NCBI RefSeq assembly: GCF_003918875.1
Contig: NW_025765607.1
Location: 1 to 64,000 of the forward strand
From: Haliotis rubra
Lineage: Eukaryota
DNA length: 64,000 bases
Direction of reading: 5' to 3'
Shown here: positions 1-38,118 of the stretch, in pieces
How positions within the stretch are numbered: position 1 is the stretch's first letter
Layout: each line of letters begins with the position of its first letter
Program-made: the position numbers and the translations under genes
Notes under the pieces: generated by a model
What the model was told of the DNA's origin: nothing
Database searches by the model: none
Seen by the model: only the letters and a program-made list of their open reading frames with translations

Positions 1-1
1 T

Positions 2-1906
2 AGATACCTGGGGAAGGGTGGTTTCCAGTCGGAATTGGTTGATTTGCACGGGTTTCACACCCTACTGTCTCCTGTGCAATTGGTACCACCGTAGACATCT
101 TGTCTAGGAAACTAGACCGTATACGTTTTCCTAAAGATGCAACCTCACAGCGGGAAGTCAAATAGGTGTTTCACGCACTTTCTGGCTATTTTCCCAATGT
201 GCTTGGCTGCATCGACGGTACTCTAATTGCAATCGTCCGTCCACAAGCATGCGAGGAGGCAGCGTATGTTTGCCGGAAGGGATTTCACGCTGTAAACATC
301 GAAGCCATATGCGACGGAGATCTAAGGTCAGTATGAAAGCACTCATAACTTTCTAAATCATACCTGCATACGTAAAACTGGATGGATACAACTCTACTGT
401 ACAATATTTACAGAGAGAACACAGTAATATTTTGATGCAAGCCAAATGCGGAAGTGATTACTTCACAATCTATAACCTTGACATTGAGTGATTAATTTGA
501 ATATCTATTTTTAGAATTTAAAGCCTGAGAGGCCCGTTTGAGGTGTCGCAGTTATTTTATTCTAATGAAAAACGTCTAAAAATTAAAACTGGAATTGTAC
601 ACTGTAATGTCATTGACCGAGTGCAAAGGATGTAAATGACATGTTCATGCATTATTGTTAACATAAAGAAATTAGTACACAATTAGAGATAGAGAGTGTA
701 CTATTCCTTACATGTATGGATTATAAATTATATATTGGAAAGGAAATTTTAAACTATGATACATACTGCATATACCCTGGAAATATATATTTTAGCATTA
801 GCATCACATAAATTGTTTTGTACTCCGGCAACACGATTTTCTCTTCTTGGTATGTTGGTAGAAATGTATGTTGTGTTATTACAGGTTCACCAATGTTGTA
901 TGCAGATGGCCAGGTGCAACACATGATAGCTACATCTTTAATAATAGTACAATTGAAGCTACCTTTAAGAGTCTGGAGGTAGAAATGGATGGTTGCTTGG
1001 AGATTCAGGGTAAATTTGATTATCATTTTGTAATAAAATAAGCTTAAAATGAGTGAAGTTTCATAAATAAAATATATGTACTTGATTATTCCATTTACTA
1101 AGAGTAAGAATACATCCAGTTTGAATTTGTGTTGTATTTACTAACATTGTCTTCATATTTCTCTTATAAATCATTTGCGTGTATATCTACAAAATCCTTC
1201 AGACATGCCTGCAGACCATGGATGGTCACCCCTGAGAAGCAACCCCAGACACAGGAGAGGAGAGATTTAACCGAGCGCTCTGTCAAAAAGGAACACAGTG
1301 GAAAGAGCTTTTGGCCTAATGAAGTCTCAGTTTCGGTTAGTTCGATTATCATAATGAAATTAATATTTCAGAATAAGCAAAATAAATAATTAAAAAATAT
1401 ATAATCTCAAGGTGTTAAACACAAAAATTAAAAGTTCATTTATATCAAAACTGAAGGCATGAATCTGTCATTTACTTACAAAGAATTAAACCATTTTGCA
1501 AAATGAAGTTTAAGATAAAGTATGAAAATATTGTAAAAATTATCCATATAGTTATTGTCTGATAGAGTAAGGAGACTATCTCTTTACAGACATAGCTCCA
1601 AAACCTATAAATGGAACTTTCAATCACTGAGGTATCGATAAATTGATATAGCTTTAACATGAATGTAGTAGGTTCTCTTTAATAATTAGATGCCTACACA
1701 AGTCAACGGGCTGCCTGCCTTTCAAACCAGACAAGTGTCATCGGCTCGTGTATGGTGTGTGCCAGCTACACAACCTGTGTATCAACCATCGCCTTCCACC
1801 CATGCCAGCCCTACCTGCAGAGGATGGCAATGACCAGCCATATGACGGTCCACTTAGAGATGGACACCAGACAAGGAAACGCTTGATAGAAAGCCCTTTC
1901 AACTAA
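2..1906 (+). pseudogene. HARBI1-like DDE transposase, 4 visible exons (~2-327, 885-1009, 1204-1336, 1690-1906), frameshifted
   Basis: Manual translation gives RYLGKGGFQSE..HG, FPNVLGCIDGTLIAI, YVCRKGFHAVNIEAICD, VVCRWPGATHDSYIF, LGDSG|Y(A)CRPWMVTP, LHNLCI: the DDE_Tnp_4 motifs. It contains stops and frameshifts. Confidence 0.9.
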
Positions 1907-3399
1907 CATATATGGTAAGTTTTTACAACAGTTCATTTGTTTTCCTTGTATATGTCAGCATGAAGAGAAATAAATAACCAATTTTTCGATAAAAATATAA
2001 TCTGTTAATGCATTTAACTATGGAAAATACACTAAGTACATACATCTTATGTTATGAATGTACACTGGTATTTTGATAAGGACTTGTTGTATTTGTAACA
2101 GGAACATTGCAAAGCATCATTAAATTGGTTCATTTTTCAAATTTCTGGGTTATCCTAAAGGCACCAACTTCAACTTCATATGTACATCAAATGAATGTGT
2201 AAATTTCATAACCAATTTCATCCAAAAAGTATTTCTTAAGTAAATTTAGTATCATTAAAATGTCAATATATATATATTTTTCAATCTTCTAAATAATTAA
2301 TTTCAAGGATATATTTCAGAATATGATAAGAGAATTCAATGCCATAACAATTTCACCATATGAATAATCAAAATACATTTTTACCTCACATACATTGCAA
2401 GTTTGTCAATTGCCAATATCCTGAATCATTGGAGCAATGTAAACTTAAATCTAGTAATCAATCATAACATTATTCTGCAGATGAGGAAAATAGGTCTTTA
2501 GGTGATAAATTTCATCAAAGACACCACTGAACCATCTATGGAATGTTTCAGTAAAATATTCAGTAAAATAACAGTTGATGTTTGAGATATGCATGGCATA
2601 AACAATGGGACGGATTGAGTGAAAAACAGTGTTAGGGACATGTATATCAACTCCTATGCAAGTGGTGGTACAATAAATAGATTCATTTTCACAAAAGCAT
2701 TATATCAGCAGACACATGGAAGTTTTATTCAGTATTTTAGCCGATATGACCTATTACAGTACACTTGTAGATGTTTTACACTGTACAGTATAGTTAAAAT
2801 AGAAATATACATACATAAATGAACTTATATTTGCAAAAATAATATTAGATTGATATTTCTTGAGTTTAATCAGTTTTCCATTAGTTGATATCTTTGTACA
2901 AAGTTGTGAACATAGAGAGGTATCTGTTTAAGAAAATTAAAACTTTACAAATGAAAAGTTCATGACACTCATCCTTGACATTGCTTTCATGACAATAATG
3001 ACATAAACTGAACTATTATTGTTATCATGTACATTTCTCTTCTAAGTTTTAAAAGACATGAAATTTTGGTAATGATATTTGTAATGTAACATATGTTTTA
3101 TTTGGGATTACTCTTCTTAGTGTATTAATGATATTTGTAAGGCTCAGAGAGCTCCTAAAGTCCTGTAGCTTGCAGTTAAGGTACATACCTTCTGTAACAA
3201 CAAATGATTTCATACAAATTATTAACAACCAATGGTACTTGATAATTTAACAGGACAACTCGAACAAGCTTGAACTACTCACATCCCCAACATATGACAA
3301 AATGGATTTATTTCACTTCATTGTTAGAATGTCTTAATAGCAAAGTATTGTATATACATTCAGAATTCAAATGTGATGATGGGTGAGATGCATATGGGA

Positions 3400-6161
3400 G
3401 TTACAGTCTGATCTGCCTGTTTTCTCATCAGCCGCAACCATTGAGTATTGGCTCTTGCAGGCGCTCTCTGTCGATCTGCAAGCGTTCCGCAAGATGGCCA
3501 CCTTCTCCCTCTCCTGCTGGACCACTTCAGCTGCCTGGGCTGCACTGTCTTCTAAAAACAAACGACAATCATGTCATATCCACAATAATTTTCAACAATT
3601 TCAGATACAAACATTGTTTTGTTTTTCCTTTTGTATTTTTTACTATAAAGGAACTTACTTGCAATCATCATTGATTGCATTGTACCTTGTAAAGTTGAAC
3701 TGGTATATCACATTGTTAATATATGAGACAATTTCATCTTTGAAAAACTTTTCATACAATCATTACGAAATATTACTCATTGACAGTACAAAGGTTAATA
3801 ATTACCATGAGTATGAACTTTTGTCTTTTGTTTCTTACTCCCAGGTCTCGAAACTACAAAGAAAATTCACAATATAATTGTTTTCAAGGATATATTGCAG
3901 AATTTGAATGTAATAACATTAAATTATTTTTTTGACTGCATCATATTATAAATGCAGTACGTATACATAATTCTTCCATTACTATAAGAAAATAGTATTG
4001 AACTGGAACTTGGAAATCTGAAGTTAAATCTTGGAATTTATTAAAATCTTAAGTATTTATAGACTAATAAACATTGTATTTGTCAAGAATGGACATATTT
4101 TCTATTTATTTTCATTTTAATACATTGCGTGACGTAGTAAGTGATATCACACTGAAAACACCAAATATTCTCTATATATTAGTCTGAGGTATATTGTCTA
4201 ATTTTGCACACCAAATCTAAACGAGATAAATCTATAATTATCATGATTTGCGATGTGATATTATTACCTATGTCTGGTGACAATTGGAACGATGCTGGTG
4301 GATCATGCGGTGTTGGTGGTGCTGCTTGTCGAGGTGGAGTGCAGGGCGAAAGGAGGATAGGTGATGTCCGGGCAGAGTCGACATTCAAATTGTTGCTGCT
4401 AGTTGAAGTCGAGGGAACAGCTGCATCAAACAACACACTGCCCAATCCTGAGAAGGCTGGAAATTAATGTTTTATATGTCAGAATACCTTTGCAAGTATA
4501 TTCTTTAACAAAAATGTATAAATTTATTTGGAATATTTAAAAAGTACATGACACTTAAACAAAGAGGTAAGTTACTGGTTTGCAAATATTTTAGGGCACA
4601 ACTTATCATTATGCAATTAATGCTATAGGCCCCCATACTGTCACTTATACAAAACATTAATTTCACACATTACTTGGTGATCACTTGTATATCATAAGTG
4701 TTTTATGATAACGGATGAATACCTGACAAGTCTTCACTATCCAGCCCCCCTGTGCAACCATTGATTTGTGCGGATGGAATGAGGGACACCACCTGTAAAA
4801 AATTAAATGAACTTTTCAGTAATTAAACAAAAGCATAAATTTGATTATACATAGACACATTGTTACAGGTGTGACAATGCAAAAATTTAACTTGAGACAT
4901 GTGCAGGTATACAGTACAAAAAAGTGACTGTACCATGATACTGAAAATATCATTGATTTATACATTCTCATATCAACAACATCCAGTAATAAACAAGTTT
5001 TTAAATTCATAATTTTATAATTTCATTACTTAAGTTTCCTCATACAAATATAGATTTATGCAATATACCTTATACTCAAAGTCACTCAGTGGAGATGGTG
5101 ATGGCCCTCCGCCTGTCTGGAATATAGCCTTCTTTAGGCTAGTGGCTTTCCTCCTTGTGTCACTCCTGTTACAGATTAAAGTACATTATATCAAATTATT
5201 TCCATCTTTAAGATCATTTACATTCAAATAACACTGACCTTGATAAATTCATTTCTTTGAAGAAAATTATCAGCCTGAAATTGAATTATTGTAAAACTAA
5301 ATATGTACATTTTCAATTTAAGTAGATTTTAAGGTTCTCAAAAAGATGTTATTTTAATAAATAAAATTATCCTTTTGGAAGTTAGTTCTTTGTTTCAGCT
5401 TGTTTGTCAAAGTTAAAGCCGCAGTATTGAAGGCATCCTTATAATATATTAGATAGGTTTACTGTTCTTGTTTAGTACATGAATATTATATTTTATGTAG
5501 TCTTACTTTAGAGTGGTCCATTTTTTTGACATCCTCTGATGAGCGGATAGAGGACCCGCAAGCACTGACTCTGAAAATATCAATAGGATTTGTGTACTTC
5601 ACTGCAGACATTCTAATCTTTTCTTTATCAGTTATGAAAACTTTAGTAGCATGTAATATACTGTTAAACAGTATAATTCATTATCAAAAGAATAGATTGA
5701 ATTCACATCAGTACTCAGAGCTCATGATAAAATATCTAATGTCTTTCTGAAATTCACTCATCAAAATATTGTGATCAATAACATTAGCCATTTCTGTGGG
5801 ATTGCTAAAAATATAATCAGATAAAGTTATTTTGAATTATTTTTCGAGAGGAGAAACATGCCTGTGAAAACAATAATTTTGACTAAAATGACCAACAGAG
5901 CCAATGAGTCCTACTTTGACATTGCATTGTTTACATTTACGAGCTGATCGCGATCAATAAATTGAATAATTAGATTCACCTGTTTGATATGTCCTTCCAA
6001 ATCTGTTGCTTCTTGCTGTTGGTAACAACGGATGAAAATGAGCTAAATAGAATAGACTTATGCTTCTCCACCTCATCAACTAAACAATCCATCTCGTTCC
6101 GAGTCCAGTTGACTTTTCTCGCTTTCTTTTCTGCGGTCGCCATCTCGCTTGAGCTTGACAT
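3400..6161 (-). pseudogene. Myb/SANT-like DNA-binding protein of the Harbinger element (multi-exon; 3' end uncertain)
   Basis: Exon ~6161-5979 MSSSSEMATAEKKARKVNWTRNEMDCLVDEVEKHKSILFSSFSSVVTNSKKQQIWKDISNR. Further GT/AG-bounded pieces lie at ~5569-5506 (IRSSEDVKK), 5166-5068 (AIFQTGGGPSP), 4793-4722, 4457-4268 and 3553-3400. Confidence 0.8.
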
Positions 6162-6782
6162 TTTGACGTCTGCTCGGGGATTTCCCAAAAAGCTGTGACG
6201 TCATATGGGAAATCCCTTCGCTTTTCTATCTCACCGACTGAAGAGCTCGCTATCCTAGCTAGGATCGGAAACTCAAGTTAGGACAGGGATAGGATCGTTT
6301 CGAGAATGGGTCTTATCTTAAAGTTAGGATGTCCTAACTTCTGTCCTAACTAGTTAGGATCTGTCTTAGCTGGGACACTTTCGAGAATAGGGGCCCTGGT
6401 ACTTATTTGTAACGTGCAATGTTAGCCATGCTGCAACAGATTAAATATCAGTTTAGGTTGCACGGGATTATGACGTGTGTTTTGTTGCACCATTATGGAC
6501 ACACCACCTTCCCAGTGTTTGATGATTAGCTATGTTAAGTATTATGTGAAAAAGAGTGAGACATCGGACAAAGGTTCTGAACGTTCATGATGTGCGATGT
6601 GAGAGATGGTATTCAGCAATTTATTAGCGCCAGCTATCTTGTCTTTACGGTTTTCCATAAGAAGGTCAAATCCGCCATTTTCTTTTTATGACGTTACATA
6701 GGTGTGACCTTTGTGTGACCTAATCGATTGTTGAACCCCACCCTCCTTCGGGAGTCCGGCCAAGGTGTGTGTGTCACCTTCA

Positions 6783-6858
6783 GGTTCACCTTAGTGGTCC
6801 GTGATTATTATTCAATTATCTTATGAGTGGTATGAGTTTGCCGACTCGAGTGTTCACA
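6783..6858 (+). repeat. Left arm of 76-bp inverted repeat
   Basis: GGTTCACCTTAGTGGTCCGTGATT...TATGAGTGGTATGAGTTTGCCGACTCGAGTGTTCACA is the reverse complement of 11427-11502 with about 2 mismatches. Confidence 0.95.
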
Positions 6859-6970
6859 CGAGAAACATGTGTTCCTTCTGTAACCCTAGTGACTACAGTC
6901 GTTGGGTGTAATACCATTCTTGGTTTAGACACTGTACTGTGCGGACGTATTACCACTGCTCTGGGATATC

Positions 6971-7318
6971 ATGGATGTGTGTGGACATTACCCAATCGAC
7001 AAGACACTCGATTGCTGTGCAATCAGTACTGCATGGGCTTCATTCCAGAAAAGATTTGATTCGTTTAAGGACTGGTCAGTGCAGATGAAACCGAGTCCTA
7101 GTCGCATGGCCCAGGCAGGATTTGTGTACTTAATCAGAGGGGACACTTGCAAGTGTTTTCAATGTGAGCTCGTTCTCAAGAACTGGGAAGTAGATGGCGA
7201 TCCCTGGGTCGAACATGAAAAATGGTCTCCAGACTGTCCGTATTTGGCCCTGGTGGGAGTACCTCAGAAACATATGGCCCGCTGGGGTAGTCATGTGGAT
7301 TTGCAACCAAGAGAGTGA
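6971..7318 (+). CDS. Single-BIR-domain (IAP-like) protein, 115 aa, intronless
   Basis: RFDSFKDW...MAQAGFVY..GDTCKCFQC-x16-H-x6-C (CPYL): a complete BIR zinc-ligand pattern. No RING. AATAAA follows at ~7340. Confidence 0.85.
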   Translation: MDVCGHYPIDKTLDCCAISTAWASFQKRFDSFKDWSVQMKPSPSRMAQAGFVYLIRGDTCKCFQCELVLKNWEVDGDPWVEHEKWSPDCPYLALVGVPQKHMARWGSHVDLQPRE

Positions 7319-7479
7319 TGTAAAATGTGTGAATATTAGAAATAAATCAATGTTAAGAGTATATCTATGCATTGGTTGTCTATGTATAGTCTTTTGTTGA
7401 TGTATAAATAGAGGTTTACTCAAATACTAATCTCATTGATATCCCAATCACGATAAGAGCTTGTTTGCAAGAAATTATT

Positions 7480-7863
7480 ATGGCTAGGTACGTGTTGAAA
7501 CATTACGAATTTTTAAGGTTCATGTTAATGTTTCAAGACATTGAGGAGATTCGACAAGACATCTTAGAAATGAACAGCAAACAGATTCTTGCCGTCAATG
7601 GTATTATCAAAAGGTTATTAAAGGGAAGGTTACCAGTGACTCGATATGAAAGGCGTCGTGTCCTGTGGAAAAATGATAGAAATAACTATCTAGCTGTGTT
7701 ACGAAGATTAGTTCACCCCCTTTGGACGACAGACAGTATGTGGAAGAGTCTTTTTGCCAGTAACATGCCTATCGTAGCATTTGTTTTGAAACCACAGTTT
7801 GTCAATGCACTTAGAGATGAGGCCATTCAAAATGCCTGGTTGTTTGATAGAGCATTGGCTTAG
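7480..7863 (+). CDS. Small basic helical protein resembling the conserved Maverick ORF found near the ATPase
   Basis: Open ORF from ATG 7480: KHYEFLRF...KQILAVNGIIKRLLKGRLPVTRYERRRV. The resemblance to Maverick small proteins (N-x-L-K-G-x-[VL]-P-[LV]-[TS] pattern) is from memory only. Confidence 0.5.
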   Translation: MARYVLKHYEFLRFMLMFQDIEEIRQDILEMNSKQILAVNGIIKRLLKGRLPVTRYERRRVLWKNDRNNYLAVLRRLVHPLWTTDSMWKSLFASNMPIVAFVLKPQFVNALRDEAIQNAWLFDRALA

Positions 7864-7989
7864 TACATCTGGTACACCCGTCTTAGGTTTGTCAATCCGG
7901 GAAAAGAGCATGTATGACCATCCTGGCAGCGATGTTGAAAGCTACACCAAGCCCAAGGTCAATGAAGATATCTAAATAACAGGCCACAA

Positions 7990-8317
7990 GGGCTATCTAA
8001 CTTCATTTAGCCGTGGACAGTGGACACGATTTTACATGCTCAGGGCTGAAGGGAAAGGAGATCCTTATCATTCTATAATGCGTTGAGGAGAAAAATCTCC
8101 CATAATGTCTGTCGATCGATATTTGGAACTGTATGATCCAGAGTGGAAGAAAGATAAACCAAAAGAAACCTCAGTACAACCTAAGATTAATTTCGTTACC
8201 CCTACTCAACAAGTGGTCGAACAAACCAAGGCTCTTATTCAGATGCAGAAGAAAGGGGGATCTAAAGTTGGAAGTTCCTATCAGATTCCCATGAAGAAAT
8301 GGAAGACGACTTTTTAG
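7990..8317 (+). pseudogene. Small Maverick-like ORF with internal stop (ORF track shows only 8105-8317)
   Basis: In-frame WTRFYMLRAEGK...*...QPKINFVTPTQQVVEQTKALIQ. It resembles a small ORF recalled from invertebrate Mavericks; unverified. Confidence 0.4.
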
Positions 8318-8367
8318 ATAAAAGCAGTCAGTAGACATGGTTCCCTGCCATTTAGACTCGGACCACC

Positions 8368-10049
8368 ATGCAGTCAACAACGTGTCCCGTGTGCTACCAG
8401 ACTTTTTCCAGGACAGACAATATGTTGAGACATAGAAGACAGAAACATAACAACTCCCTCCTCCTCCTCCTCCTCCACAACCACATCAACAACTCTCTCC
8501 TCCTCCTCAACCACCATCACCACCACCACCACAAGCATCACCTCCACCTCATGGACCTCCTCTTTCATTAATGCAAACTTGGCAACATCATCATCAGCAT
8601 CAGCAACTACAGCAGCAGCAACCAGTGCAACCACATTCACCAGAAAGTACTACCCAGTCATTGGAAGAATCAAGGCTGCAACGTCCATTCACCATGATCG
8701 TCTCAGGGCCCACCTCCTGTGGGAAAACCTACTTAGTGAAACAGCTTCTAGAAAGAATGAACATTAAACCTTATCCTGAACGTATTATATGGCTCTACAA
8801 ACGATGGCAGCCATTATAATGCCATTCAAACCCATGTTTATCCCTATGAAATTTCATCAAGGCATTCCTTCTGATCTCGAAAAGGATGCATTTCTGGACC
8901 CCAGTGTTGTGAACGTGGTTATCCTCGATGACTTAATGTCTACTGCCAGCAAAGATCCACGCATTACAGATTTTTTTTACCGAAGGAAGTCATCATCGTA
9001 ATCTCTCAGTGATATCCTTGAACCAGAATTTCTATTACAGTAAGGATCCCACACAACGAAGAAACTGTCATTATCTGCTTCTGTTCAACAACCCTATTGA
9101 CCAACAACCCATCATGACTTTGGCGAGGCAAATGTTTCCAGGTAACACAGACCACTTCATGGAGCCATTTCAAAGGGCCACCCAGAAGCCTTATGGCTAC
9201 TTGTTGGTAGATCAAAAACCCCAAACACCTCCCCATTTGCGACTTTGTCCCAACGTATTTAATTTAAAAGGAGGCCTCCAAGCTAGGACAATTCAGTCCG
9301 AGTTAGACGTTCAGAGTGAGCAGATGTGTGAAGAAAACCTCCCAACAATGCCATCTTGTGATGACTGTGGACTCGTGTTTCAAGACGTGCATGATTTGCA
9401 AAAACACAGAAGAAACTGGTGTCCTGAAAAGTCTTCAGTGGGTCCACCTGGAATACCCTAAGTGAAAAGGAAGTGGGAGGAAGACGACAACTTCTCTCTT
9501 GTGAAGAGACCATGTCCTCTGTCAGATTGTGACTATTGTGGTCACTTGTTTAGCAATAACCACAACTTACAAAGACATTTACACGATAAACAATGTCCTG
9601 AAATGGAAACTGATGAGGATGATGAATCGTTAAAAGATGTCACACATGGCAACAGGAAAAATAACATAGTTGATCTCGAGGAGCAAGGTATAAAACGAAT
9701 GTATTCACGGACGTGTGAGGTAAATAAAGACTTTTCGGATGAGAAACGACAGCTGTACATGAAAAGAAGTATAAACAAAGACATGATTCAAGCCAAACTG
9801 AAGAAATTCATCTGGAGCACGTTTAAAGAGACGTATGCCCGATTTATTACTTATCTGTACCATATGTAGTATGGACCAAAGACACAAGGAATACTGAAAC
9901 GAGTAAAAGATACAAATGATATGTATCATGACGTGTTTTCCAAACTGTACCAATATAAATCTTGGGTAGAAGACTTAATTGATGATGATTATGAAGACAT
10001 GACATCTGATGTAGAGAGTGAAGGGCCGGACGTTGAGGAAGGGCAATAA
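8368..10049 (+). pseudogene. C2H2 ZnF / Pro-Gln linker / A32-like packaging ATPase / two zinc fingers / acidic tail fusion, broken by ~3 frameshifts and 2 stops
   Basis: CPVCYQTFSRTDNMLRHRRQKH; Walker A PFTMIVSGPTSCGKT; Walker B VVILDDLM; FTEGSHHRNLSVISLNQN; LARQMFPG; KPYGYLLVD. These are the characteristic motifs of the Polinton ATPase. Then CDDCGLVF..DLQKHRRNWC and CDYCGHLF..NLQRHLHDKQC. TAA at 10047-10049, AATAAA at ~10125. Confidence 0.85.
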
Positions 10050-11426
10050 TACAATTAGCACAACAGGTAAAGTAGACATTTGGGTGAGCTCCTATCCTAA
10101 AGCCTACTCATTTGAAACTGAGCTAATAAACAATGAAATCTGTATATCTTTCTTGTTTTTAAATGTATTGTACCCATGAAGGTCTAGGCTACCCTTCAGT
10201 AACCCATGCTTGTCGTAAAAGGCGACTAACGGCATGTGAGTAACCTATGTGTCACATGATGTCAAATAAGTGTCATAAACATGGACATAAGATGGGTGTT
10301 TTTCATGTTTGCAATTTGAGAGTAAAAGTTTTAAAATGTTGAGTAAAAGTGAAAGTTTTACAGGAGAACACATATTTCTTATTCAGTATTATATATGACA
10401 AATGCTAAATCATTTCATCGCTGTACAACCAAACTACTTGAGATATTCAGTGACCATCTGTCCTGAACTGCTTACTATTTACTGTCAATAATTCCGGTCA
10501 GACACTTGTCTCCTTACATAATGGAAGCTGACCACTTGTCAGCATACATTCAACATCACATTGAAAATTATCCATGCCATGTACTCATGATTACAGTCTG
10601 ACCTTTAAACAGCGGAAGCTGACCGTTTGTGACCACGCTGAAAATAATCAACAACCATGCACACATGATTACAGTCTGACCTTTAACTTACAATAAAACA
10701 ATTTCTGGTCAACTTGAACCGGATAACTTTGCGAGCACAGGAAGCTAACACATCAACCCTCCCAGGTCCGCACCAACTGTCACCTACTTGAACATAATTT
10801 GTACACGCATAATTGATACAAATGACAGCATTAAATACTTAAAAATGGTGGTCAGTTTTAATGACTGGATGCTGGTGCTTTTAACAAACATAACACCTTA
10901 CACTTTTTCATCCAATCACAGCTGTCACATGTCTCTTCAGAGACGGCTCAGTGAGCAAGCGATTCTGCTATGCAAAATAGCATAGTGTTATGTATTAATG
11001 CCTATAGACAGGGCCCCATTCACGCATATACAGGTTCACGTGAAATTTAAAAGCTACAACCGTTTATTGTTGACAGATATGTAAAATACTTGTTCCTTGT
11101 TTGACAGCTTATTTTAAACTGGCTAGTGATTTAACAAAATGCGCTGTGATATTTTGACCTTATAAATAGCAGCTAAATTCCCCCTCATTGTGTGATATTA
11201 ATTCTACTTTGAATACCTATGCTTATTCTGTCTCACTGTCCCTGAACCACATTATTTTCCCTCCTTCCACATGCCCTCTCTGCAGTGCTAAAACCCTAAA
11301 TAAAACAAGTCTAGATTTCCTCAGGTTCTGAATCTCTGGGGTCCTTAGGGATCCTTTTCAATTTAAACGGGCTTGTTGGTTATTATCAAAATTATATATA
11401 CTCAGAGACTAAGCATTAGTTTGTCC

Positions 11427-11502
11427 TGTGAACACTCGAGTCGGCAAACTCATACCACTCATAAGATAATTGAATAGAAATCACGGACCACTAAGGTGAA
11501 CC
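11427..11502 (-). repeat. Right arm of 76-bp inverted repeat
   Basis: Reverse complement of 6783-6858; followed by a C-rich run. Confidence 0.95.
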
Positions 11503-11520
11503 ACCCCAACCCCCCAACCC

Positions 11521-11810
11521 CATACAACAGCTAGATCACATCGTGCACGTGCCTTTGGACACTTCTTCCGACAAGAGGCGGTAGCAAATCTACCTTGGCC
11601 TTCGTGTAGTCCAGATCTCAAGACATAGATAAATGCTTGGGACATTATGGGTCGTGGTTTACGCCACAGAGATCCCCCAGTACAAGGAATAAACATATTG
11701 GAACAAGTCCTCCATCAAGAATAGAACACACAACATCGCATCTTCTGATAGTCACTGCTTGGAATTATTGCAATTTTCGGAGGTGACGGATGTTACACCA
11801 GATATTGACA
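11521..11810 (+). mobile_element. Tc1/mariner transposase C-terminal remnant
   Basis: ARSHRARA..FFRQEAVANLPWPSCSPDLKT*INAWDIMGRGLRHRDPPVQ..LEQVLHQE* ... YTRY*, matching the Tc1 NARPH / WPxxSPDLNPIE / GGxTxY motifs. Confidence 0.85.
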
Positions 11811-12760
11811 TAGTGCTCGGTTTGTGATTCTTGATTGCACGCCAGAATCTTGAAAATGTCCACGGTTATCAGCACTACTATCTGATTCAAGTTTTCACCA
11901 GGTTTGCTTTTTGAAGAAACTGCAGTGTGTTCGTTCTTTTAGATTGGTAAGTAAAATAATCCTCCATGGTTAATTTATTCAGATTCTAAAGAAATTTGAG
12001 GTTTGGATGAGTTCCCTTTGCTATAGTTAATAGTTGCATGTTGATATTATAACAAATAGAGGGTCTTTCGACACTGTTTTCCGTGTGTACATGAACTGAA
12101 CAAACTATTTCTTATTTTTTCCAGGTTAAACCGGTAAATAAATATGAAAACGAAATTGTCATCTTGTAATAAATGTGCTATATAAAATGTGGCTTCATGT
12201 GATGTGTATACATATAGGTGTTGTTCCGGTTAAGATGAAATACGTTCCTACATCAACTATGCAAACGCTAAAGCAAGACATACACCTGGCACCCAAGTGT
12301 TACAACAGGTGTTTGCATGGTCAGCGGTTGATAGGTGACCGTAGCCCTACTGCCCCATATGAAAACATTTATCTTGATAGTAGATGCCATGACGCAGTTT
12401 AGGCTGTAGCAACGACCATATATTAAATGAAGAGCGTGTTTAACTGGTCTCAATATATTTATTTATGGAATATGCGGCCCATTTTGAAACACAAGTCGCA
12501 GGTTGATAGTGTGCATGGCTTAAATATTGAAGATCTCAGAAACTTGGTTGAACAACTATTTTGTATAAAAGTCCAATTTTCTATGCAGAACTAAGTATAA
12601 TCTACTCGTTTGTGTATTTAACATATTGTGCAAATTAACTACAAAATGCATGCTTATCATTCATTTGGTCTATATATACAACAACCCTGACATGAGACAA
12701 TATGCGTAATGCCCTGTAGATATGGAACACTATTCTACATAATACCGCTGCGGAACAGAT

Positions 12761-12931
12761 ACTGACTGACTGACTGAGTTTGGTTTTACGCCGCTTTTAG
12801 CAATATTCCAGCAACATCACGGCGGGGGACACCAGAAATGGGCTTCACACATTGTACCCATGTGGGGATTTGAACCCGGGTCTTCGACGTGACGAGCCAA
12901 CGCTTTAGCCACTAGGCTACCCTACCGCCCC
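12761..12931 (-). mobile_element. tRNA-derived SINE, family A
   Basis: Reverse complement of the 15991-16156 copy; A/B boxes, (CAGT)n tail, flanking repeat CGGAACAGA at 12751 and 12934. Confidence 0.9.
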
Positions 12932-13065
12932 TACGGAACAGAGAAGAACGTACTCTTAAAAACCTAATGAGATGAGTAGACAGGGTGACACTTTCCATGA
13001 TAATAAGTGGCGGGGCGGGGGTGGGGGTCGTGGTGTTTGGTGTGTGTGTGTATGTTGTGTATGTG

Positions 13066-13213
13066 TGGGGGGTAGCCAAATGGTTACTAGCGTCCACTCG
13101 TCACACTGAAGACCCGGGTTCGATTCCCCACGGGTACAATGTGTGAAGACGGTTTCTGGTGTTCCCCGCCTGAAATATTGCTAAAAGCGGCGTTAAACGA
13201 TACTCGCTCACTC
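13066..13213 (+). mobile_element. SINE family A, diverged (another partial copy at 13678-13790)
   Basis: GGGTTCGATTCCC B box, ATGTGTGAAG..TTTCTGGTGT core, ATATTGCTAAAAGCGGCG tail. Confidence 0.8.
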
Positions 13214-15641
13214 TTAGAAGTTGGTATGATGAAGGAGGAACAAGTTTATTCGTGTCTGCACGTTGAATTTATTGCAATTCATAAAAAAACTTCAAATACA
13301 GTCATTTGGCAATTCACAACTGGTTCTCAGTATGTTTCTGGTACGGATCAGTTGTCTTGTAATTAACAAGATATGTGAGTTAATGTATGTTGTTTGTTTA
13401 TGTCGCCATAGCTACGGTATAGCACACCATAACAAACCAAAAAATCATGGCGTCGTGAGATACCTGAGTAGATTGAGGGCCTCGCATATATTAGTGACTG
13501 ACAAAGACGCATTTTGCACCGATGTCATGTAACACAAAACATCGTACGCTCTGGTATTACCCTACTGCGTGTTTACAGTTGATAAGATATTGATCATGTG
13601 TCCAGATCATATATATCATATGTATCCGGATCGTGTACAGTGTCTCCTTAGTGTTTTCCTTAATCATATTACATACCGAGTTCGATTCCCCATATTGGTC
13701 CGATATATGAAGCCAATTTTTGGTGCCCCCTCCGTGATATTGCTAGAATATTGCTAAAAGCGGCTTAAAACAATACTCACTCTCTCACTCACAATACGGT
13801 TCAATGTTGGCACAGAATCGAGGCGGCTACAGTACGTAGCTGAGATTGGGTGGGTAGTTGTGCCTGTTCTCTTTAATAATGTGTGTGTAGACGACCTGGA
13901 TACCGATGTTCCCTGGAAACAAAGGATCGAGAAAGCTACAGGACGTAAGACAACGAAAAAATGGAGAAAGTGTGTTGCATGTAAGCGGTCTATATACCAT
14001 GGCTACGCAAGCGAGCTTATACGTGAGTGCGTTTGCATTTGTGTGGGCGTGTGTGAGTTTCAAATACAGTACCAAGACGCTTTACGCACCATGGTTCATT
14101 GTAGGCTCGGAAAGGCTACAATAGGGAACAGAACTTGTAGAAATTCGTTCTTTTGTACCTATGTGTGTATGTCTCTGCTTGTTGTGCATGCTTTTCAATA
14201 TGTTATGAGCGAATATGTTATGTTCCACGACAGACTGTCGTAGAAGGCAAAATCAGGCTACAGTACGTAACACTGACTGGGTGGTTATATGCGCGTATTT
14301 GTATCCGTGTGCGTGCGTGCGTGTGCTTTACTATTTCCTGAAGACGAACTGTACACTTCACTGTGAGTACGTGCTTGAAAAAAGCTTCAGTACTGTCTTT
14401 GTGTACATCGAAAAGGATATCATGAGTGAGTGAGTGAGTGAGCATAGCTTAACGCCACTCTGAACAATTTCACTTATTTCATCATGTTGAAGGAAAGGCA
14501 AACATGACATAGCGGCGAATAAAATGCCAAATCAAAAAAAAGAACAACAAAAAAATTAAACCCTCGATTAAAAATTTCCACTCAGCGAGACAAATTTATG
14601 TGAGAGCGAGTGGGGTTAATATTCATGACAGCAATATAAGCCCATTTGTAAGGCCTTTTGTTTATGCTGAATGTCAAGTCCAAAGTCCATTATCACTCCT
14701 TGGGAGTTTACAACTCAAACTGAATTTAATGTGCTCGTTGATTCTACCTGGTATTTATCAGCTGTTGGCTGTGAAGTCGTATTTGGAACAACTTCACTCC
14801 CAAAAAGAGACACCACATGTATGTGCTTCAGTGTAGGGCAGGATCTAAGCAGGCCTCAAAACATTCGGGAACCAAGTTGCCGAACACGGTCACCCATCCA
14901 AGGACTCCCTGCGACTAATGTGACATACCTTCGCCTGATACGTAGACTAAATCTTAATGTCGTCTTGAACAATATTTCAGGTTTTCACAGTATGTCTGCT
15001 AGATATCGGAGGAAGGCACAAAGTGATGTGTATAGTGCTAGGATTCGAACCCAGGTTCAGAGTTTGCACCTCAGAGACGCAGCTCTGCACAGCGAATTGC
15101 GCCGTCTAAAATGGCAAGTCCATCATACGCATCGACTTGAAAGTTGTAGGAGACCGTCTATTAGAGACGACACCAACATACACACATGAACAAACTTGTC
15201 GAGCAGCAAACCTCAGTGCCATTGATACGCAAACAATATGTTAAGAACTAATGGAGGTAACAAAAGACCACAAGAGGTTTAAAGAGAGAGGATAACTATT
15301 CCCGAGCATGCGTAGATTCACTTACTACACGTGCGCAATACTAGTAATAGTAATAGTAATTTATTCGCTTATATGGCGCTCATATCCATGCACATTGCCT
15401 GTTTACGGCGTTACGTACATTACTATCATAGGACACTATCGTACTTTCCAAAACCTTTTTCAACTCCCGCGGGATCATACAGCCATGCTGCCTGTTATGC
15501 GCAACGAACTATACACTGACATTGCCAGCACATCTTCACGGGTACCCAATTTACAGCTGTGTGAACTGAGACAATGTGGATCTAGACAACTTGTCCAAGG
15601 ATTAGAGACAGCTGTGCCTACCTCGGGACCCAAACCTAGGT

Positions 15642-15713
15642 GCCTCCACCGGGGATCGAACCTGGGCATTCAGCGTGATAGGCAGACGACTTACCACTGC
15701 ACTATTAAAAGGC
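15642..15713 (-). pseudogene. 72-nt tRNA-like sequence (Asp-like pseudo-tRNA or SINE head)
   Basis: Reverse strand GCCTTTTAATAGTGCAGTGGTAAGT...CCAGGTTCGATCCCCGGTGGAGGC has A/B boxes and a weak acceptor stem; the anticodon arm pairs poorly. Confidence 0.45.
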
Positions 15714-15990
15714 AACTGTGCGACAGTGTCCCTTTAGGATTCTATAATTTAGCACTTTACGGTCGGATTCTCATTTCGAATTTTGTAGAAACCATGTTAT
15801 TTGAGCTATGTATGAACGCTGGTAAGTTGACTCTGTGTTTAGTACTCTATCGAGTACTTCGATCACTTCAAAAGTGTAATCCAGTAATACGTGTCTGTCA
15901 ATTACCATATACTAAGTTTTTGAGCGTTTATTTTTATGACGTTACGTTTGTCATTGCCTACCAACGAGCAGCAAACCTCGTGATACAGTG

Positions 15991-16156
15991 GGGGCGGTGG
16001 GGTAGCCTAGTGGTTAAAGCATTGGCTCGTCACGCCGAACACCCGGGTTCGATTCCCCACATGGGCACAATGTGTGAAGCCCAATTCTGGTGTCCCCCGT
16101 CGTGATATTGCTGGAATATTGCTAAAAGCGGCGTAAAACTAAACTCAGTCAGTCAG
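15991..16156 (+). mobile_element. tRNA-derived SINE, family A, full length
   Basis: GGGGCGGTGGGGTAGCCTAGTGGTTAAAG...GGGTTCGATTCCCC...GCTGGAATATTGCTAAAAGCGGCGTAAAACTAAACT(CAGT)n; 13-bp TSD TCGTGATACAGTG. Confidence 0.92.
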
Positions 16157-19004
16157 TCGTGATACAGTGATATTTACGCGTAACGGCTGACAAACACCCT
16201 TCACCATGCGGTACAAAGGGCGGGGTAGAGCACGGGACAAGTATAACACATAGATAACATTTCAATGTGATAAGGTGCGTTGGCTCACACAGAAATCATA
16301 TCAGGGTCATTTGTGCAAGCTGCATTCAGCCTACCACATAGGTGGGTCTTCTCACAATAACCCAGCTGACAAAGACAGTATCGCCCTGTCGATAGATATC
16401 AGTTATCTCCCTTTTAATGCAAAACGAAGAGCATGATCAGCTTATTTCTCACCCGTATATTAATCATGCATTCACAACCCGGAAGAAAATGAGCGCGGTG
16501 TCAGAAGTCCACAAACAGTTTTTTACCACCAACCGGCCTGACCTACAAGGAAGAAATATTAAACTTGTTGCCGAACTCTTACCCAAGAAAAAGGGTGTGC
16601 AAACACAACATGAATGTTTTTGACACCTCGGCGTGGGAGTCTGGGTACATCTGCCTAATTCTGAACCACAGTTCTGATAGCCTAACTACAGCTTGTTGTA
16701 TATCTACAGAGTCACCTGTATATGGTTAGCTATGTTTTGGTATCTCTACTGACACAGTTGTTGTGTGACGCCATAGTCAGGTGAACAACAATGTGTTCCA
16801 GAAATAGAAGAAACAATTACTTCCTCCAACGTAAAGTACTAAAGTATCATACAAGACCGTTTATAATTTATGGCTAGGGGGGCTGATGATGATGTTCATG
16901 GAGAAGTATGTACAATGTGAATGACAACCACCTTCACCCCTGAAATATATATACAAAGTAAGTGACACCACCTGCCTGTCACGTTCAAGATTGCTAAACT
17001 TCCCCTGGTACATATGTGCAAATTTGATGAAATGATGAGCGATATTCCTGTAGATAACAATTTCATACATGTTTCGCTTTCATGCACATTTATTTAAACT
17101 GTTGAGCGTGATTAGAAAATTGTAAATTGAATAAAAAGAAGCATCTGGTGAAAAATAATTACAGATAATTATAGATATATCATTCATTCATTCAGTTGCC
17201 ATCATCTATTTACAGGGGCAGGAAGCGTGGAAGAAATGAAGTAACAATGTTTTGTATTTTCCTCACCCAGACCTAAAACTCTCAAAGATCAGCTTCACAA
17301 AGAATAAACACCCAAGTAGCGTGCGAATGTCTTAACTCCTGAGCTATCTAATAGCTCCCTCGCTGACTATTCATGCCCTGTTATCTCCCGGTTTTTCTTG
17401 GATTATTGTATATGTATACATCATACCTAGTCAAATTGACCTGACAAGTTGTTTCAGTTGGTTAAAATATTGTAAACAATCTGTCTCAGGAAATGATTAA
17501 AGAAATATAATTGCTGCCCCGAAAAAAAATCAATCTGCAAAGAAATCACTAGGATCCTATGAATAAAACTACAGATGAGGGTGAAAATACACGTTACATG
17601 ATTATACCTGTTATTTAACTGCTCGGTCCTGTACCATGAACGGTTCGACAGTTTCAGCCTTATGCCCTTTCCCAAGGAGCTGGACATATAAAGAACGCAA
17701 TGAAACCAACACATTATAGGCTATCTTTCGTTTGAGCGAAGAATCACCGCCGGGTCTAAACATTCCACTGTAACTGTTTCCTACAGAAACAAGAACTGAA
17801 TCCAGAGTAAAGAAAAAAATAGCATAGTAATAGGGAAAAGAAGCATTTTGGCTTAACAAGGTAAAATTTGTAGACGAACATGAACTTGAACAACCCTCTT
17901 TTTCGTTTGCAGACCTTACAGTTATCTTGTGAATTACAATAGTTGGTACGGATACAGTGCATCTACAGGTACAAGACGTTTTAGGGGCCCTCGTAACTCT
18001 ACAAAAGCCAATAAAACTGTCGAAGAGGCACTTCACCCTTGTTGAACACGTGCTTTGTGACACTAGCTACCTCTGTAATATCAACCGGAGCAATGTATTG
18101 GGAGACACAAACAAGAAGAGCTTAAAATATCTTGAAACACCCAATAAATGAAGAACTTTCAATTGTCATGCGTCATCAGTTTTGCTAATTTAGATAAGAG
18201 GGGATGATCGCGTGTGTGCGTGCGTGTGTGTGTGACGCCGGAGACCCGGGTTCTATTCTCCACTTTTTCAGTATACTTCAGAATAGGGATGGGATGCATC
18301 TCATCTTTTCGAGAACGTTACTGTTTTCAGTGAATAGAGGGAGTTTACAGGCGGAAAGTCAGAAATGTCGAATAAGTCTTTCATCATGACTTCACAGATG
18401 TTACCAATGGGCATGATGTAGCACAAGGAATCGGTAGGGGTATTGATCCACAACAGATGTGATGCAGTTTTAGTAGAAATAGTAGAATTAAATCTTGGAT
18501 ACTTTTAAAATGGAATTCAAATACAAATGCAATCTGTGTACTGCTACCAACCTGTCGTTGAAATATACTCAGGACGTGAAATGAGCGTTTGACCAAATCA
18601 GGCCCTCTTCTATCCTTGAACTAACTTCACATCCACGTACCTGCGTAAATTATCCACGAAAAATACGCCGAAGGGTGAATTCTTTATCAATTTCAATCCT
18701 GTTTCAAAGTGAATCCTGAACCTACACTATGCGGGGTTAAAATTCAACGTATTCTTTCAGCTCATATTCTCGGTTGAATTGGAGCATCCAGTGGACTTTG
18801 GTCAATCTTAATCTTCAAATTTTAGATACTGCTAATGGATCATATACTTTGATTTGGACTGAAGACCGGGGATGAACTTTTCAGCGGTGGTCCTTCTCAG
18901 ACTAAGATCCTGCATGACGTGTTTGGCATATGGCGAGAACATGTCTTCTGTCACTCTCAGTCTCACAGGTGCTTGGGAGATATCCTCCTGGAGCTACTGA
19001 GGAT

Positions 19005-37050: not shown

Positions 37051-38118
37051 ATGGCCGCCTATGCATTCATCGATAGAACCAACATTTTAGAAACATACAC
37101 AGAAACAGAGTTGAAACGAAGATTTAGATTATCAAAAGATGGTATACAATTTGTAGTAAGTCTCATTTCCAATGAAATTTCGCCTCTCACTCAAAGAAGT
37201 CATCCTTTATCAAAGTTCTACTGACGCTGCGTTACTTTGCTTCACGGGCAAAGTACAGCTGTGTAATGCGGACCTCATTGGTGTTTCACAGTCTTCAGTG
37301 AGTAGGGCCATTAACCAAACAATAACTGCATTGTCTGCCCCTGCCATTGTTCGACAGTTCGTTTCGTTTCCTACCAGTCCGACTGAAATCCGACGAAACC
37401 AACTTGGTTTCTATAGCATCGCTAACTTTCCCGAAGTGGTTGGGGTTATAGATGCACATTCAGATTATAGCACCATCCGAGCACGAACCTGCTTATGTGT
37501 ACAGAAAGCAGTACCACAGCATCAATACTCAGGTTGTCTTTGACCACAGTTCACATATCATTGATGTAGTTGCGAAATGGCCCGGGTCCGCTCATGACTC
37601 GCGCATACTGACCGAGAGCGGCGTTTGCACTTTGTTCTCTCGCCACATGATGCCTGCCGGCTGCCTCTTGCTTGGAGACAGTGGATATCCATGTAGAGAC
37701 TGGCTCCTCACTCCTTATATTCAGCCTAATCCCGTCTCTCAGACAGCATACAACAGGCATATCGAATCTTGCAAACGACATGACTTTTCTCGATTAGTCA
37801 ATTAGAGTTATGCCCCTGTCAAATATGACTATAAGTGAAACTGGGTTGCATTAAAAAAGTGATGTGTTCTTTCCTGGAACAATCTACAATCCTAGAATAC
37901 ATCAAAAGCTTTCTGACAAATACATAATGAAATGACAGTAAACATAAAAGAATACTTTAGGGCTGAATAGATTATTTATCTACATCTGTATCATGTTATG
38001 TATTTACATGCCAGTTACAAATTGCAAAATATGCTACTGAAGATGTTTTTCATAACATTTGATTTTTTGACTGACAGAGCTCATAAGAGGACACACAGCA
38101 TGGTGGAGAGGGGAATAA
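37051..38118 (+). pseudogene. HARBI1-like transposase, frameshifted and truncated
   Basis: LKRRFRLSK, GVSQSSVSRAI, FPEVVGVID, YVYRKQYHSINTQVV, KWPGSAHDSRIL, LLGDSGYPCRDWLLTP, YNR|AHKRTHSMVERGI. Confidence 0.9.

What the first reader, a model, noticed from the sequence alone, without database searches (positions are those of the whole stretch)
6783..11502. Compact IR-bounded Polinton/Maverick-derived element lacking replication, integration and capsid genes
Seen: four intronless co-oriented ORFs (BIR, two small ORFs, ZnF-ATPase) between a near-perfect 76-bp inverted repeat, 4.7 kb overall. Known: Polintons are ~15-25 kb with pPolB, integrase, protease, capsids, AG-rich termini and 6-bp TSDs; none of these is visible here. 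Inference: either a deletion derivative or a satellite/non-autonomous virus-like unit (or genome segment) that kept only packaging and anti-apoptosis genes. The IR is almost intact while the ATPase has ~5 lesions, hinting at mobilisation or homogenisation after coding decay.
Basis: partly seen in the sequence, partly recalled or inferred. Interest (0 to 1): 0.7.

Follow-up and report, generated by a model that had tools for sequence, protein, structure and literature searches.

The report
Mini-Polinton satellite keeping foreign packaging motor
This is a decayed copy of a small jumping DNA, present in well over 100 copies in an animal genome (likely a mollusc), that has the ends of larger virus-like Polinton elements but not their polymerase, integrase or major capsid genes, and keeps a foreign DNA-packaging-type motor under selection, so it likely travels as a satellite inside their particles.

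Summary
The inverted repeat and four ORFs are real, but the window holds a damaged copy of a large family. Intact copies are about 6.2 kb, with ~1.45-kb arms, 5'-TGTTGTA ends and 6-bp target duplications. Full-length Polintons in the same genome have the same end motif and duplication length. The zinc-finger ATPase has over 140 close matches. Of 75 loci examined, 0 carry the polymerase and 1 a 66-aa capsid scrap.

The ATPase is not the helpers' own (30-37% identical). It sits where a capsid-bearing sibling has its major capsid gene, occurs on at least three different sets of Polinton ends, and is under purifying selection (dN/dS 0.10-0.38; shifted-frame controls 0.8-1.5). Its nearest relatives in this genome lie in capsid-less polymerase-ATPase-integrase elements.

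Best reading: a non-autonomous Polinton family, copied and integrated in trans (well supported), whose own ATPase likely packages it into helper capsids (inferred, about even odds). The idea of mobilisation after coding decay is not supported: a same-site copy has an open 520-aa frame. No description of such an element turned up in ten literature searches; Repbase could not be checked.

The parts
6661..6866 (+). Remnant of the left terminal arm; the outermost TGTTGTA/G-tract and about 1.3 kb of the inner arm are missing.
   Evidence: 80-97% to the ends of other copies
6971..7318 (+). Single-BIR (IAP-type) ORF, 115 aa, frame open; predicted anti-apoptotic cargo
   Evidence: Pfam BIR E 7.6e-22; 58% to a BIR in full Polinton C509 and 44% to the C1606/C142 family; dN/dS 0.47-0.65
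7480..7863 (+). ORF2, 127 aa, frame open; member of the conserved small Polinton protein family that usually lies beside the ATPase; function unknown
   Evidence: 44-46% to a gene between protease and ATPase in 5 capsid-bearing Polinton loci; aligns at 17-21% with the small gene of other families; no Pfam hit; no database homologue
7930..8022 (+). Likely 3' remnant of the minor capsid gene (approximate limits, by collinearity with L061)
   Evidence: Minor-capsid profile hits 53 of 89 loci of the mini-element set, including L061; the window itself was not in that scan; collinearity
8021..8317 (+). ORF3, the small gene that lies between minor and major capsid genes in full Polintons; 5'-truncated and interrupted in this copy
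   Evidence: DNA 91% to full Polintons C855 and C2769 over 8021-8254; protein 90% to C855
8368..10049 (+). ZnF - proline/glutamine tract - A32/FtsK-type ATPase - 2 ZnF - helical C-terminal domain (561 aa in an uninterrupted copy); broken here by 4 indels and 2 stops
   Evidence: the model matches STIV B204 (E 8e-7) and A32-like ATPases (E 5e-10)
10198..11529 (-). Right terminal arm ending in TACAACA (11523-11529). Lacks ~115 nt just inside the G-tract.
   Evidence: 84-95% to both arms of other A-type copies; 87-90% to one end of deleted Polintons C477 and C80; host repeat

Best explanation
It is a decayed copy of a multi-copy, polymerase-, integrase- and capsid-less mini-Polinton that is likely copied and integrated by full-length TGT-ended Polintons of the same genome, and whose own selected, foreign packaging-type ATPase likely loads it into their capsids, which would make it a satellite. 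SHOWN: shared end motif and 6-bp duplications with full Polintons; absence of pPolB and of a whole major capsid gene; a foreign ATPase placed at the ORF3/major-capsid boundary; the same ATPase on three or more end sets; purifying selection within and between those sets. INFERRED, high odds (~0.9): helper pPolB primes at the termini and helper integrase inserts the copies. The long identical arms of the window's subfamily likely arose by copying the polymerase-side end onto the other end. INFERRED, about even odds (~0.5): a gene that acts in trans is kept only if it favours its carrier, so the element likely has a phase outside the chromosome in which its ATPase matters. Expressed from the capsid transcription unit, the ATPase would use its three extra zinc fingers and C-terminal domain to select its own DNA for helper capsids. 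BIR would delay cell death during that phase.
For: Ends and TSD: 27 of 77 loci have a TGTTGTA...TACAACA pair with a 6-bp match at <=1 mismatch. Of these, 21 of 27 are exact at 6 bp and 0 of 27 at 4, 5, 7 or 8 bp; 26 of 27 end pairs are alike beyond the motif; 7 of 702 cross-locus pairs match. Full Polintons C2283 (15.5 kb), C108 (14.3 kb) and C69 (16.2 kb) have TGTTGTA ends with exact 6-bp duplications, found by self-alignment. Their integrase, protease and CARD-PC4/NADAR genes are named by Pfam; their capsid model, though weak (pLDDT 50), matches double jelly-roll capsids. Gene content: 0 of 75 loci with pPolB, 1 of 75 with a 66-aa capsid piece (profile search 1 of 89). Foreign ATPase: 30-37% to the ATPases of the TGT-ended full Polintons; own clade (SH-aLRT 100) inside a mollusc ZnF-ATPase clade (99), apart from them. 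Slot: integrase-bearing intermediates L209 and L218 are 88-93% collinear with capsid-bearing C2769, and the homology stops in the ORF3 3' end, about 100 nt before the capsid match. Chassis swap: ORF3 is 85-95% to helper C69 in most C-type copies but about 35% to the A/B type, while the ATPases are 84-91% alike. Selection on ATPase codons 104-300: 0.36 in 11 copies found by their ends, 0.24 in 40 rank-spread copies; unchanged without CpG codons; shifted and antisense controls 0.82-1.48. Within chassis 0.25-0.38 with bootstrap intervals below 1; net between chassis 0.10-0.15; Walker A intact in 39 of 44, Walker B in 35 of 44. Capsid-less kin: C1402 (AGTAGT ends, ATTATG duplication; pPolB-ATPase-integrase) and relatives, with 0 of 22 stretches hitting either capsid profile. 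0 of 46 metagenome loci hit the major capsid profile.
Against: No particle, extrachromosomal form or transcript was shown. The ATPase clade is also kept in capsid-less elements that have their own polymerase and integrase, which fits a non-packaging role equally well. Most of the 46 metagenome contigs are short (only 6 of the 10 checked have >=1 kb beyond the integrase), so a capsid gene could lie off-contig. Two of them have the protease next to the ATPase (L225, L253), as in capsid modules. Only 75 of at least 150 loci (1211 raw candidates) were examined, so a rare full-length parent with this ATPase could be missed. The tree is the quick one (the careful search was unfinished, long-branch warning, 2 of 75 rows left out). 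The single pair of integrase-bearing intermediates gives dN/dS 0.89 (0.48-2.18). Pairwise dN/dS counts shared branches many times. No complete element with A-type ends and all core genes was recovered: C80 and C477 are deleted, and C2769 is truncated. The 27 TSD pairs were picked by a 6-bp search, so their length test is conditioned on it.
Confidence: 0.55

Rival explanations
1. Non-autonomous Polinton family whose ATPase was repurposed for an intracellular job: it helps replication, partition or integration of the element's DNA, or jams the helper's packaging motor like a defective interfering genome. It has no packaging role of its own.
For: The clade carries extra zinc fingers, a basic patch and a helical domain in all molluscan homologues aligned. 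It persists in capsid-less pPolB-ATPase-integrase elements. Selection is equally explained.
Against: The fold and motifs remain those of packaging ATPases. The gene sits in the capsid slot next to ORF3, which is kept in 70 of 75 loci and tracks the helper lineage. A pure jammer need not keep catalytic motifs (inference).
Confidence: 0.25
2. Ordinary deletion derivatives of an undetected autonomous Polinton; the low dN/dS is inherited from that parent's diversity, and the ATPase does nothing for the minis.
For: A graded series of deletions exists (integrase-bearing 7-kb forms, 6.5, 6.2, 4.3 and 1.6 kb). Only half of the scored loci were read. BIR and ORF2 are dispensable (46 and 36 of 75). Named non-autonomous Polintons exist (PMC4028283 Table S1).
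Against: 0 of 75 loci have pPolB. Every full Polinton read has a different ATPase. dN/dS is below 1 inside each chassis, among copies sharing the same deletion. The two zebrafish non-autonomous Polintons lost the ATPase together with the capsid.
Confidence: 0.12
3. One segment of a multipartite Polinton-derived virus, as in bidnaviruses (recalled, not checked), with partner segments carrying the polymerase and capsid.
For: Elements with the same A-type ends carry complementary modules: C80 has pPolB, C477 has integrase. The size is segment-like.
Against: C80 has its own canonical ATPase, and both C80 and C477 look like broken full Polintons. No capsid-only element with these ends was seen among the 31 end-found loci. 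Full-length helpers exist.
Confidence: 0.05
4. The ends are moved by a Ginger-type transposase rather than a Polinton integrase.
For: TGTTG fits the TGTNR pattern of Ginger ends (PMC2836005 passages).
Against: Ginger duplications are 4 bp (5 bp for TDD); here 0 of 27 are exact at 4 or 5 bp. The ends match full Polintons at up to 88-98%.
Confidence: 0.03

Closest known systems
Polintons/Mavericks (polintoviruses, adintoviruses)
   Same: Terminal inverted repeats, 6-bp target duplications, A32/FtsK-type ATPase, IAP cargo (PMC8097293 passages; PMC8502044 section 3.2); shared ends and ORF3 with full elements in this genome.
   Different: 4-6.5 kb; no pPolB, integrase, protease or major capsid; ends are TGTTGTA, not the AGTAGT, AGAGAG or ACACACA motifs listed for vertebrates; the ATPase is foreign to the helper.
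Non-autonomous Polintons (Polinton-1N1_DR, Polinton-2N1_DR; Polinton-N1_NV)
   Same: Named as non-autonomous Polinton forms; dependence on a partner in trans is recalled, not read.
   Different: The zebrafish forms are 11-15 kb and lack capsid, ATPase and protease together; the Nematostella forms keep capsids (PMC4028283 Table S1). The paper reads such loss as concerted. Here the ATPase alone is kept and selected.
Capsid-less Polintons that keep an ATPase (P_Pd1.1 of Platynereis, P_Gi1.2)
   Same: ATPase present; major capsid, penton and protease absent. This resembles C1402 here, the nearest in-genome kin of the ATPase.
   Different: Single 11-kb entries. The table gives no selection test or helper link, and no mini form. 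Their sequences were not compared here.
Transpovirons
   Same: Small linear capsid-less DNA elements with few genes, including a zinc-ribbon gene, that go with a larger virus (PMC3671162 passages).
   Different: They go with mimiviruses and encode an SF1 helicase. No helicase family hit here. This element integrates with 6-bp duplications.
Phage satellites that encode their own packaging protein (PICIs, P4; recalled, not read)
   Same: Works like them under the best explanation: no capsid gene, but a packaging component of its own to steer helper capsids.
   Different: Eukaryotic, unrelated proteins, no own integrase or replicon in most copies, shares the helper's ends; hijacking is untested here.
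Virophages and PLVs
   Same: Integrating dsDNA hyperparasites of the same virus supergroup (PMC11296320 passages).
   Different: They encode their own capsids and parasitise giant viruses; here the presumed helper is itself a Polinton.

Membership tests
Autonomous Polinton/Maverick | Protein-primed DNA polymerase B | tested here: not met
   0 of 75 loci
Autonomous Polinton/Maverick | rve integrase | tested here: not met
   Absent in the window; near-whole in 2 of 75 loci (L209, L218), a 43-aa piece in 1, outside the element in 1
Autonomous Polinton/Maverick | Major capsid, minor capsid and protease | tested here: not met
   Major capsid piece and protease in 1 of 75. Minor capsid only as a remnant in the minis, near-whole in L209 and L218. 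The profiles hit 9 of 11 control stretches; the 2 misses begin past the capsid genes.
Autonomous Polinton/Maverick | A32/FtsK-type ATPase | tested here: met
   broken in the window copy
Autonomous Polinton/Maverick | [quoted passage not shown] | tested here: met
   Met in the family; no duplication recognisable for the window copy
Non-autonomous Polinton derivative | Ends shared with an autonomous Polinton in the same genome | tested here: met
   B-type ends match C855/C2283, C-type ends match C108/C69. A-type ends match deleted Polintons C80 and C477 at 85-87% and only the first 52 nt of C69 at 80%; a complete A-ended helper was not recovered.
Non-autonomous Polinton derivative | Dispersed multi-copy insertions with own duplications | tested here: met
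   151 ATPase matches among 150 scored of 1211 candidates; 27 bounded elements
Non-autonomous Polinton derivative | Simple internal deletion of one parent, with coding decay or concerted loss of packaging genes | tested here: not met
   Chimeric origin and purifying selection
Viral satellite | Depends on a helper for replication and encapsidation | tested here: inconclusive
   Missing genes and shared ends imply dependence; no direct test
Viral satellite | Packaged in helper capsids | not testable with these tools
   Needs particle-fraction sequencing
Viral satellite | Own genes distinct from the helper's and maintained by selection | tested here: met
Ginger transposon | TGTNR ends | tested here: met
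Ginger transposon | 4-bp (5-bp for TDD) duplication and Gypsy-like transposase | tested here: not met
   0 of 27 exact at 4 or 5 bp; no transposase family hit
Transpoviron | SF1 helicase | tested here: not met
   No such Pfam hit in the element's ORFs
Transpoviron | Association with a giant virus | not testable with these tools
   No relative found in viral contigs

The most novel reading that the evidence does not exclude
Mollusc genomes harbour a hidden class of Polinton satellites defined by one mobile gene: a zinc-finger packaging ATPase that is swapped into the capsid slot of different helper Polintons and steers their capsids to its own genome. It comes in three grades: capsid-less polymerase-ATPase-integrase elements, integrase-only intermediates, and 4-6 kb minis. 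It would be a eukaryotic counterpart of packaging-hijacking phage satellites, and population-genetic evidence that animal Polintons really make particles.
Probability: 0.4. Interest if true: 0.87.

Novelty: new variant of a known kind. Interest (0 to 1): 0.7.

Why it matters
Polinton virions have not been observed (stated in PMC8097293 and bioRxiv 2023.08.22.554363, passages read). An element with no capsid gene that still keeps a packaging-type motor under selection is hard to explain without either helper particles or a new job for that motor. Either outcome is informative, and both can be tested by sequencing.

Such elements would be filtered out by screens that demand major capsid, minor capsid and 10-50 kb, as the coral survey did (PMC11131425 passages). 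That may be why none turned up in my searches. Here the mini ATPase gave over 140 close matches, while a DNA search with a helper-type ATPase region gave 57 matches in about 45 loci (both lower bounds, different methods). The parasites may therefore outnumber their helpers.

Tried and rejected
Searches that found nothing useful:
- Viral contigs: no relative.
- ORF2: no homologue in the 5.8-billion-protein search; the protein atlas gave no answer.
- Capsid profile against PDB sequences: 0 hits; the fold match came from a weak model.
- C-terminal domain of the ATPase: 8 hits; the 6 looked up are unnamed or 'hypothetical' metagenome proteins, and no function was gained.
- Earlier scan notes: none by words or sequence; one unrelated note on a Polinton of this genome.

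Sequencing runs: no RNA holder was listed. One run guessed to be RNA covered the element patchily and shows nothing on expression. Contigs of three DNA or unlabelled runs, under three organism labels, cover the element far deeper than its flanks; that is not a copy number. None of the joints shown skips the whole element (15 of 181 were shown), so the empty-site test did not complete.

Ideas dropped:
- That the host repeat inside both arms proves arm homogenisation after insertion. The same fragment is already in the A-type end of C80 and C477.
- That the lesions predate mobilisation (see first-reader verdict).
- A possible degraded duplication at the window's left end was too weak to call.

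Not done or not available:
- No complex prediction was sent.
- The careful tree did not finish.
- Kapitonov and Jurka 2006 is not held, and Repbase could not be searched; mollusc non-autonomous Polinton entries there may already cover this family.
- Eighteen further loci picked (for example C198, C203, C767, C2503) were not read, so more integrase-bearing forms or a complete A-ended helper may exist.

Literature searches that found no description of this element: (listings and abstract starts only, except the papers cited as read). Supplements were read for PMC4028283 only; those of other papers may bear on novelty.


Full report
OBSERVATION. The window is G000:C717:1-64000 in a 1.38-Gb assembly. 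All named database homologues of the ATPase but one are from bivalve molluscs, so the host is likely a mollusc (inference). The inverted repeat (6783-6866 / 11419-11502, 84 nt, 95%) and the four frames are there. A search with the repeat scored 40 of 191 candidates, and all 40 matched at 94-100%. Reading 31 stretches around them showed that the repeat is a remnant. Eight paired copies have arms of 1387-1521 nt, 86-99% alike, around a 3.3-kb core. The real end is TGTTGTA plus a G/GT tract. The window copy has lost the inner 1.3 kb and the tip of its left arm and ~115 nt of its right arm, which ends at 11529.

FAMILY. The ATPase core gave 151 matches among 150 scored of 1211 candidates, many with open frames above 500 aa. 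I read 60 of these loci (the top-ranked 17, three distant ones, and 40 spread down the list) besides the 31 found by their ends. 77 loci held an ATPase match of at least 55%. 27 were bounded by the end motif with a 6-bp duplication at <=1 mismatch: 21 of 27 exact at 6 bp, none at 4, 5, 7 or 8 bp, against 7 of 702 cross-locus matches. Those pairs were picked by a 6-bp search; duplications read directly from aligned ends (L034, L036, L060, L061) agree. The copies fall into chassis: A (window type, 6.2 kb, long arms), B (6.5 kb, short arms), C (4.3-5.4 kb, no ORF2, BIR optional) and a few others. After dropping the two distant AGT-type loci, 75 remain, three of which are the same insertion. Among them pPolB occurs in 0, a capsid piece in 1, ORF3 in 70, BIR in 46 and ORF2 in 36.

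HELPERS. A pPolB family search gave 142 matches. Three full elements were delimited by self-alignment, at 14.3, 15.5 and 16.2 kb, each with TGTTGTA ends and an exact 6-bp duplication. Their order is CARD-PC4, NADAR, integrase, minor capsid, ORF3, major capsid, protease, and on the other strand pPolB, ATPase and two small genes. The major capsid is named from a weak model that matches double jelly-roll capsids; the minor capsid is named by position and recall only. B ends and ORF3 match C855/C2283, and C ends and ORF3 match C108/C69. A ends match the polymerase-side end of two deleted Polintons, C80 and C477; a complete A-ended helper was not recovered. In A copies that one end appears at both sides, which explains the long arms (inference).

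THE ATPASE IS FOREIGN AND SITS IN THE CAPSID SLOT. It is 30-37% identical to the ATPases of the TGT-ended full elements and 54-69% to molluscan and metagenomic proteins that share its N-terminal finger, proline tract, later finger and helical tail. A model of an uninterrupted copy (mean pLDDT 69) matches the STIV B204 and A32 packaging ATPases. In a quick tree of 73 rows (2 left out; careful search unfinished; long-branch warning), the 21 mini and intermediate copies form one clade (SH-aLRT 100) inside the molluscan clade (99), away from the 12 full-element rows. Two intermediates, L209 and L218, carry CARD-PC4, NADAR, integrase, minor capsid and ORF3, then this ATPase and an A-type end. They are 88-93% collinear with capsid-bearing C2769, and the match stops in the 3' end of ORF3, just before the major capsid gene. 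ORF2 comes from yet another source: 44-46% to a gene between protease and ATPase in five loci of another capsid-bearing family.

SELECTION. Pairwise counts on natural copies give dN/dS for codons 104-300 of 0.36 (11 copies found by their ends) and 0.24 (40 rank-spread copies); without CpG codons 0.35 and 0.27; shifted and antisense controls 0.82-1.48. The top-ranked 17 give 0.13 but are biased by their choice. With those left out, within-chassis values are 0.33 (A), 0.38 (B) and 0.25 (C), all with codon-bootstrap intervals below 1, and net between-chassis values are 0.10-0.15. The one pair of intermediates gives 0.89 with a wide interval. The C-terminal part, BIR, ORF2 and ORF3 give 0.17-0.65 (without frame controls). 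Selection inside a chassis, among copies that share one deletion, means the ATPase mattered after the capsid and polymerase were gone (inference; shared branches are counted many times).

CAPSID-LESS KIN. The nearest in-genome relatives (62%) lie in AGTAGT-ended elements. C1402 holds pPolB, ATPase and integrase between 291-nt repeats with an ATTATG duplication, about 8.2 kb once a 5.2-kb insertion is set aside. Neither capsid profile hit any of 22 stretches of this family. In 46 metagenome loci, the neighbours were integrase in 15, pPolB in 8, protease in 2, an ORF3-like gene in 2 and major capsid in 0; most contigs are short. L222 (10.6 kb) and L239 (4.2 kb) begin and end in inverted repeats and show no capsid hit. 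Gene models from Mya and Mytilus fuse the ATPase to a following integrase or protease.

THE WINDOW COPY. It is dead: four frameshifting indels and two stops in the ATPase, and a truncated ORF3. The same insertion with its flanks recurs on C353 and C2791 at 94-97%. C2791 has an open 520-aa frame, and C353 has 14 indels. The damage therefore came after insertion or from assembly error, and it does not show movement after decay.

MECHANISM. Shown: structure, ends, duplications, gene absences, foreign origin, slot, selection. Inferred with high odds: replication from the termini by helper pPolB and insertion by helper integrase. This follows from established Polinton biology, where the integrase leaves 6-bp duplications (PMC8097293 passages). 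Inferred with about even odds: the ATPase selects the element's DNA for helper capsids. The main rival is a non-packaging or interfering role (0.25), then inheritance from an unseen parent (0.12).

KNOWN AND NEW. It works like a satellite but is shown only to be a non-autonomous Polinton derivative. It fails membership of autonomous Polintons, Ginger and transpovirons. PMC4028283 (passages and Table S1 read) reports concerted loss of capsid, protease and ATPase in nine elements. Its table lists two 11-kb elements that keep only the ATPase, a precedent for the C1402 type but not for the minis. PMC8502044 (passages and section 3.2) notes IAP cargo. Passages of PMC6431247, PMC2836005, PMC11131425, PMC3671162, PMC11296320 and three preprints (2023.08.22.554363, 2024.01.15.575659, 2026.10.13.758929) were read; none of the passages describes such an element. 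Ten searches found no description. Repbase and most subscription papers were out of reach. The comparisons with PICIs and bidnaviruses are recalled.

VERDICT. A real, multi-copy, chimeric mini-Polinton; a new variant of a known kind; interest 0.7, rising to about 0.87 if packaging into helper capsids is shown.

Noticed in passing
G000:C2283:398041-413575, C108:33489-47760, C69:1468052-1484291 (L147-L149, L153-L154, L159-L160): Full-length Polintons with 5'-TGTTGTA ends and exact 6-bp duplications, an end motif not among those listed for vertebrate Mavericks; they carry CARD-PC4 and NADAR genes.
   Followed up: partly
G000:C1402:1345113-1358520 (L139, L164); also C2361, C2521, C2733: AGTAGT-ended Polinton family with only pPolB, ZnF-ATPase and integrase and no capsid hit; C1402 holds a 5.2-kb foldback-like insertion.
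   Followed up: partly
L209 (C2367) and L218 (C1613): Integrase- and minor-capsid-bearing intermediates without pPolB, major capsid or protease; more candidates were not read.
   Followed up: partly
L190:6163-6795 (- strand): Open 210-aa CARD-BIR fusion in a C-type mini, an IAP-like architecture likely made by deletion between the CARD-PC4 and BIR genes; similar joins in L199 and L203.
   Followed up: no
L239 (metagenome contig, 4242 nt): 340-nt inverted repeats around an ORF2-like gene, a ZnF-ATPase and a CARD gene: a possible independent mini-element in another organism. True ends not established.
   Followed up: partly
L225, L253; proteins P0046, P0077: ZnF-ATPase directly followed by the protease, in L225 preceded by a minor-capsid-like gene: the ATPase again stands where a major capsid gene would be.
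   Followed up: partly
L224, L228, L237: ORF3-like gene directly followed by ZnF-ATPase in another animal's contigs, with no Polinton core gene downstream in L224.
   Followed up: no
L032:2599-4280; L034 and L035 (C56): A 1.6-kb derivative made only of arm sequence, and a copy with unrelated inserted DNA and a tandemly repeated right end.
   Followed up: no
window 1-18180 against G000:C353 and C2791: The locus occurs three times in the assembly at 94-97% identity: alleles, haplotigs or segmental duplication. The indel load differs strongly between them.
   Followed up: partly
window 5974-6393 and 37160-37543: Likely PIF/Harbinger remnants (Myb/SANT-like and transposase-like frames, recognised from memory, not tested); the first abuts the element's left side.
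   Followed up: no
window 23248-29375 and 40720-52467; repeats 43559-45605 / 55402-57455: Immunoglobulin-like exons (recognised from memory), an ~11.85-kb-period duplication, several minisatellites (periods 42, 52, 54, 111, 116, 136) and many copies of a SINE-like repeat.
   Followed up: no
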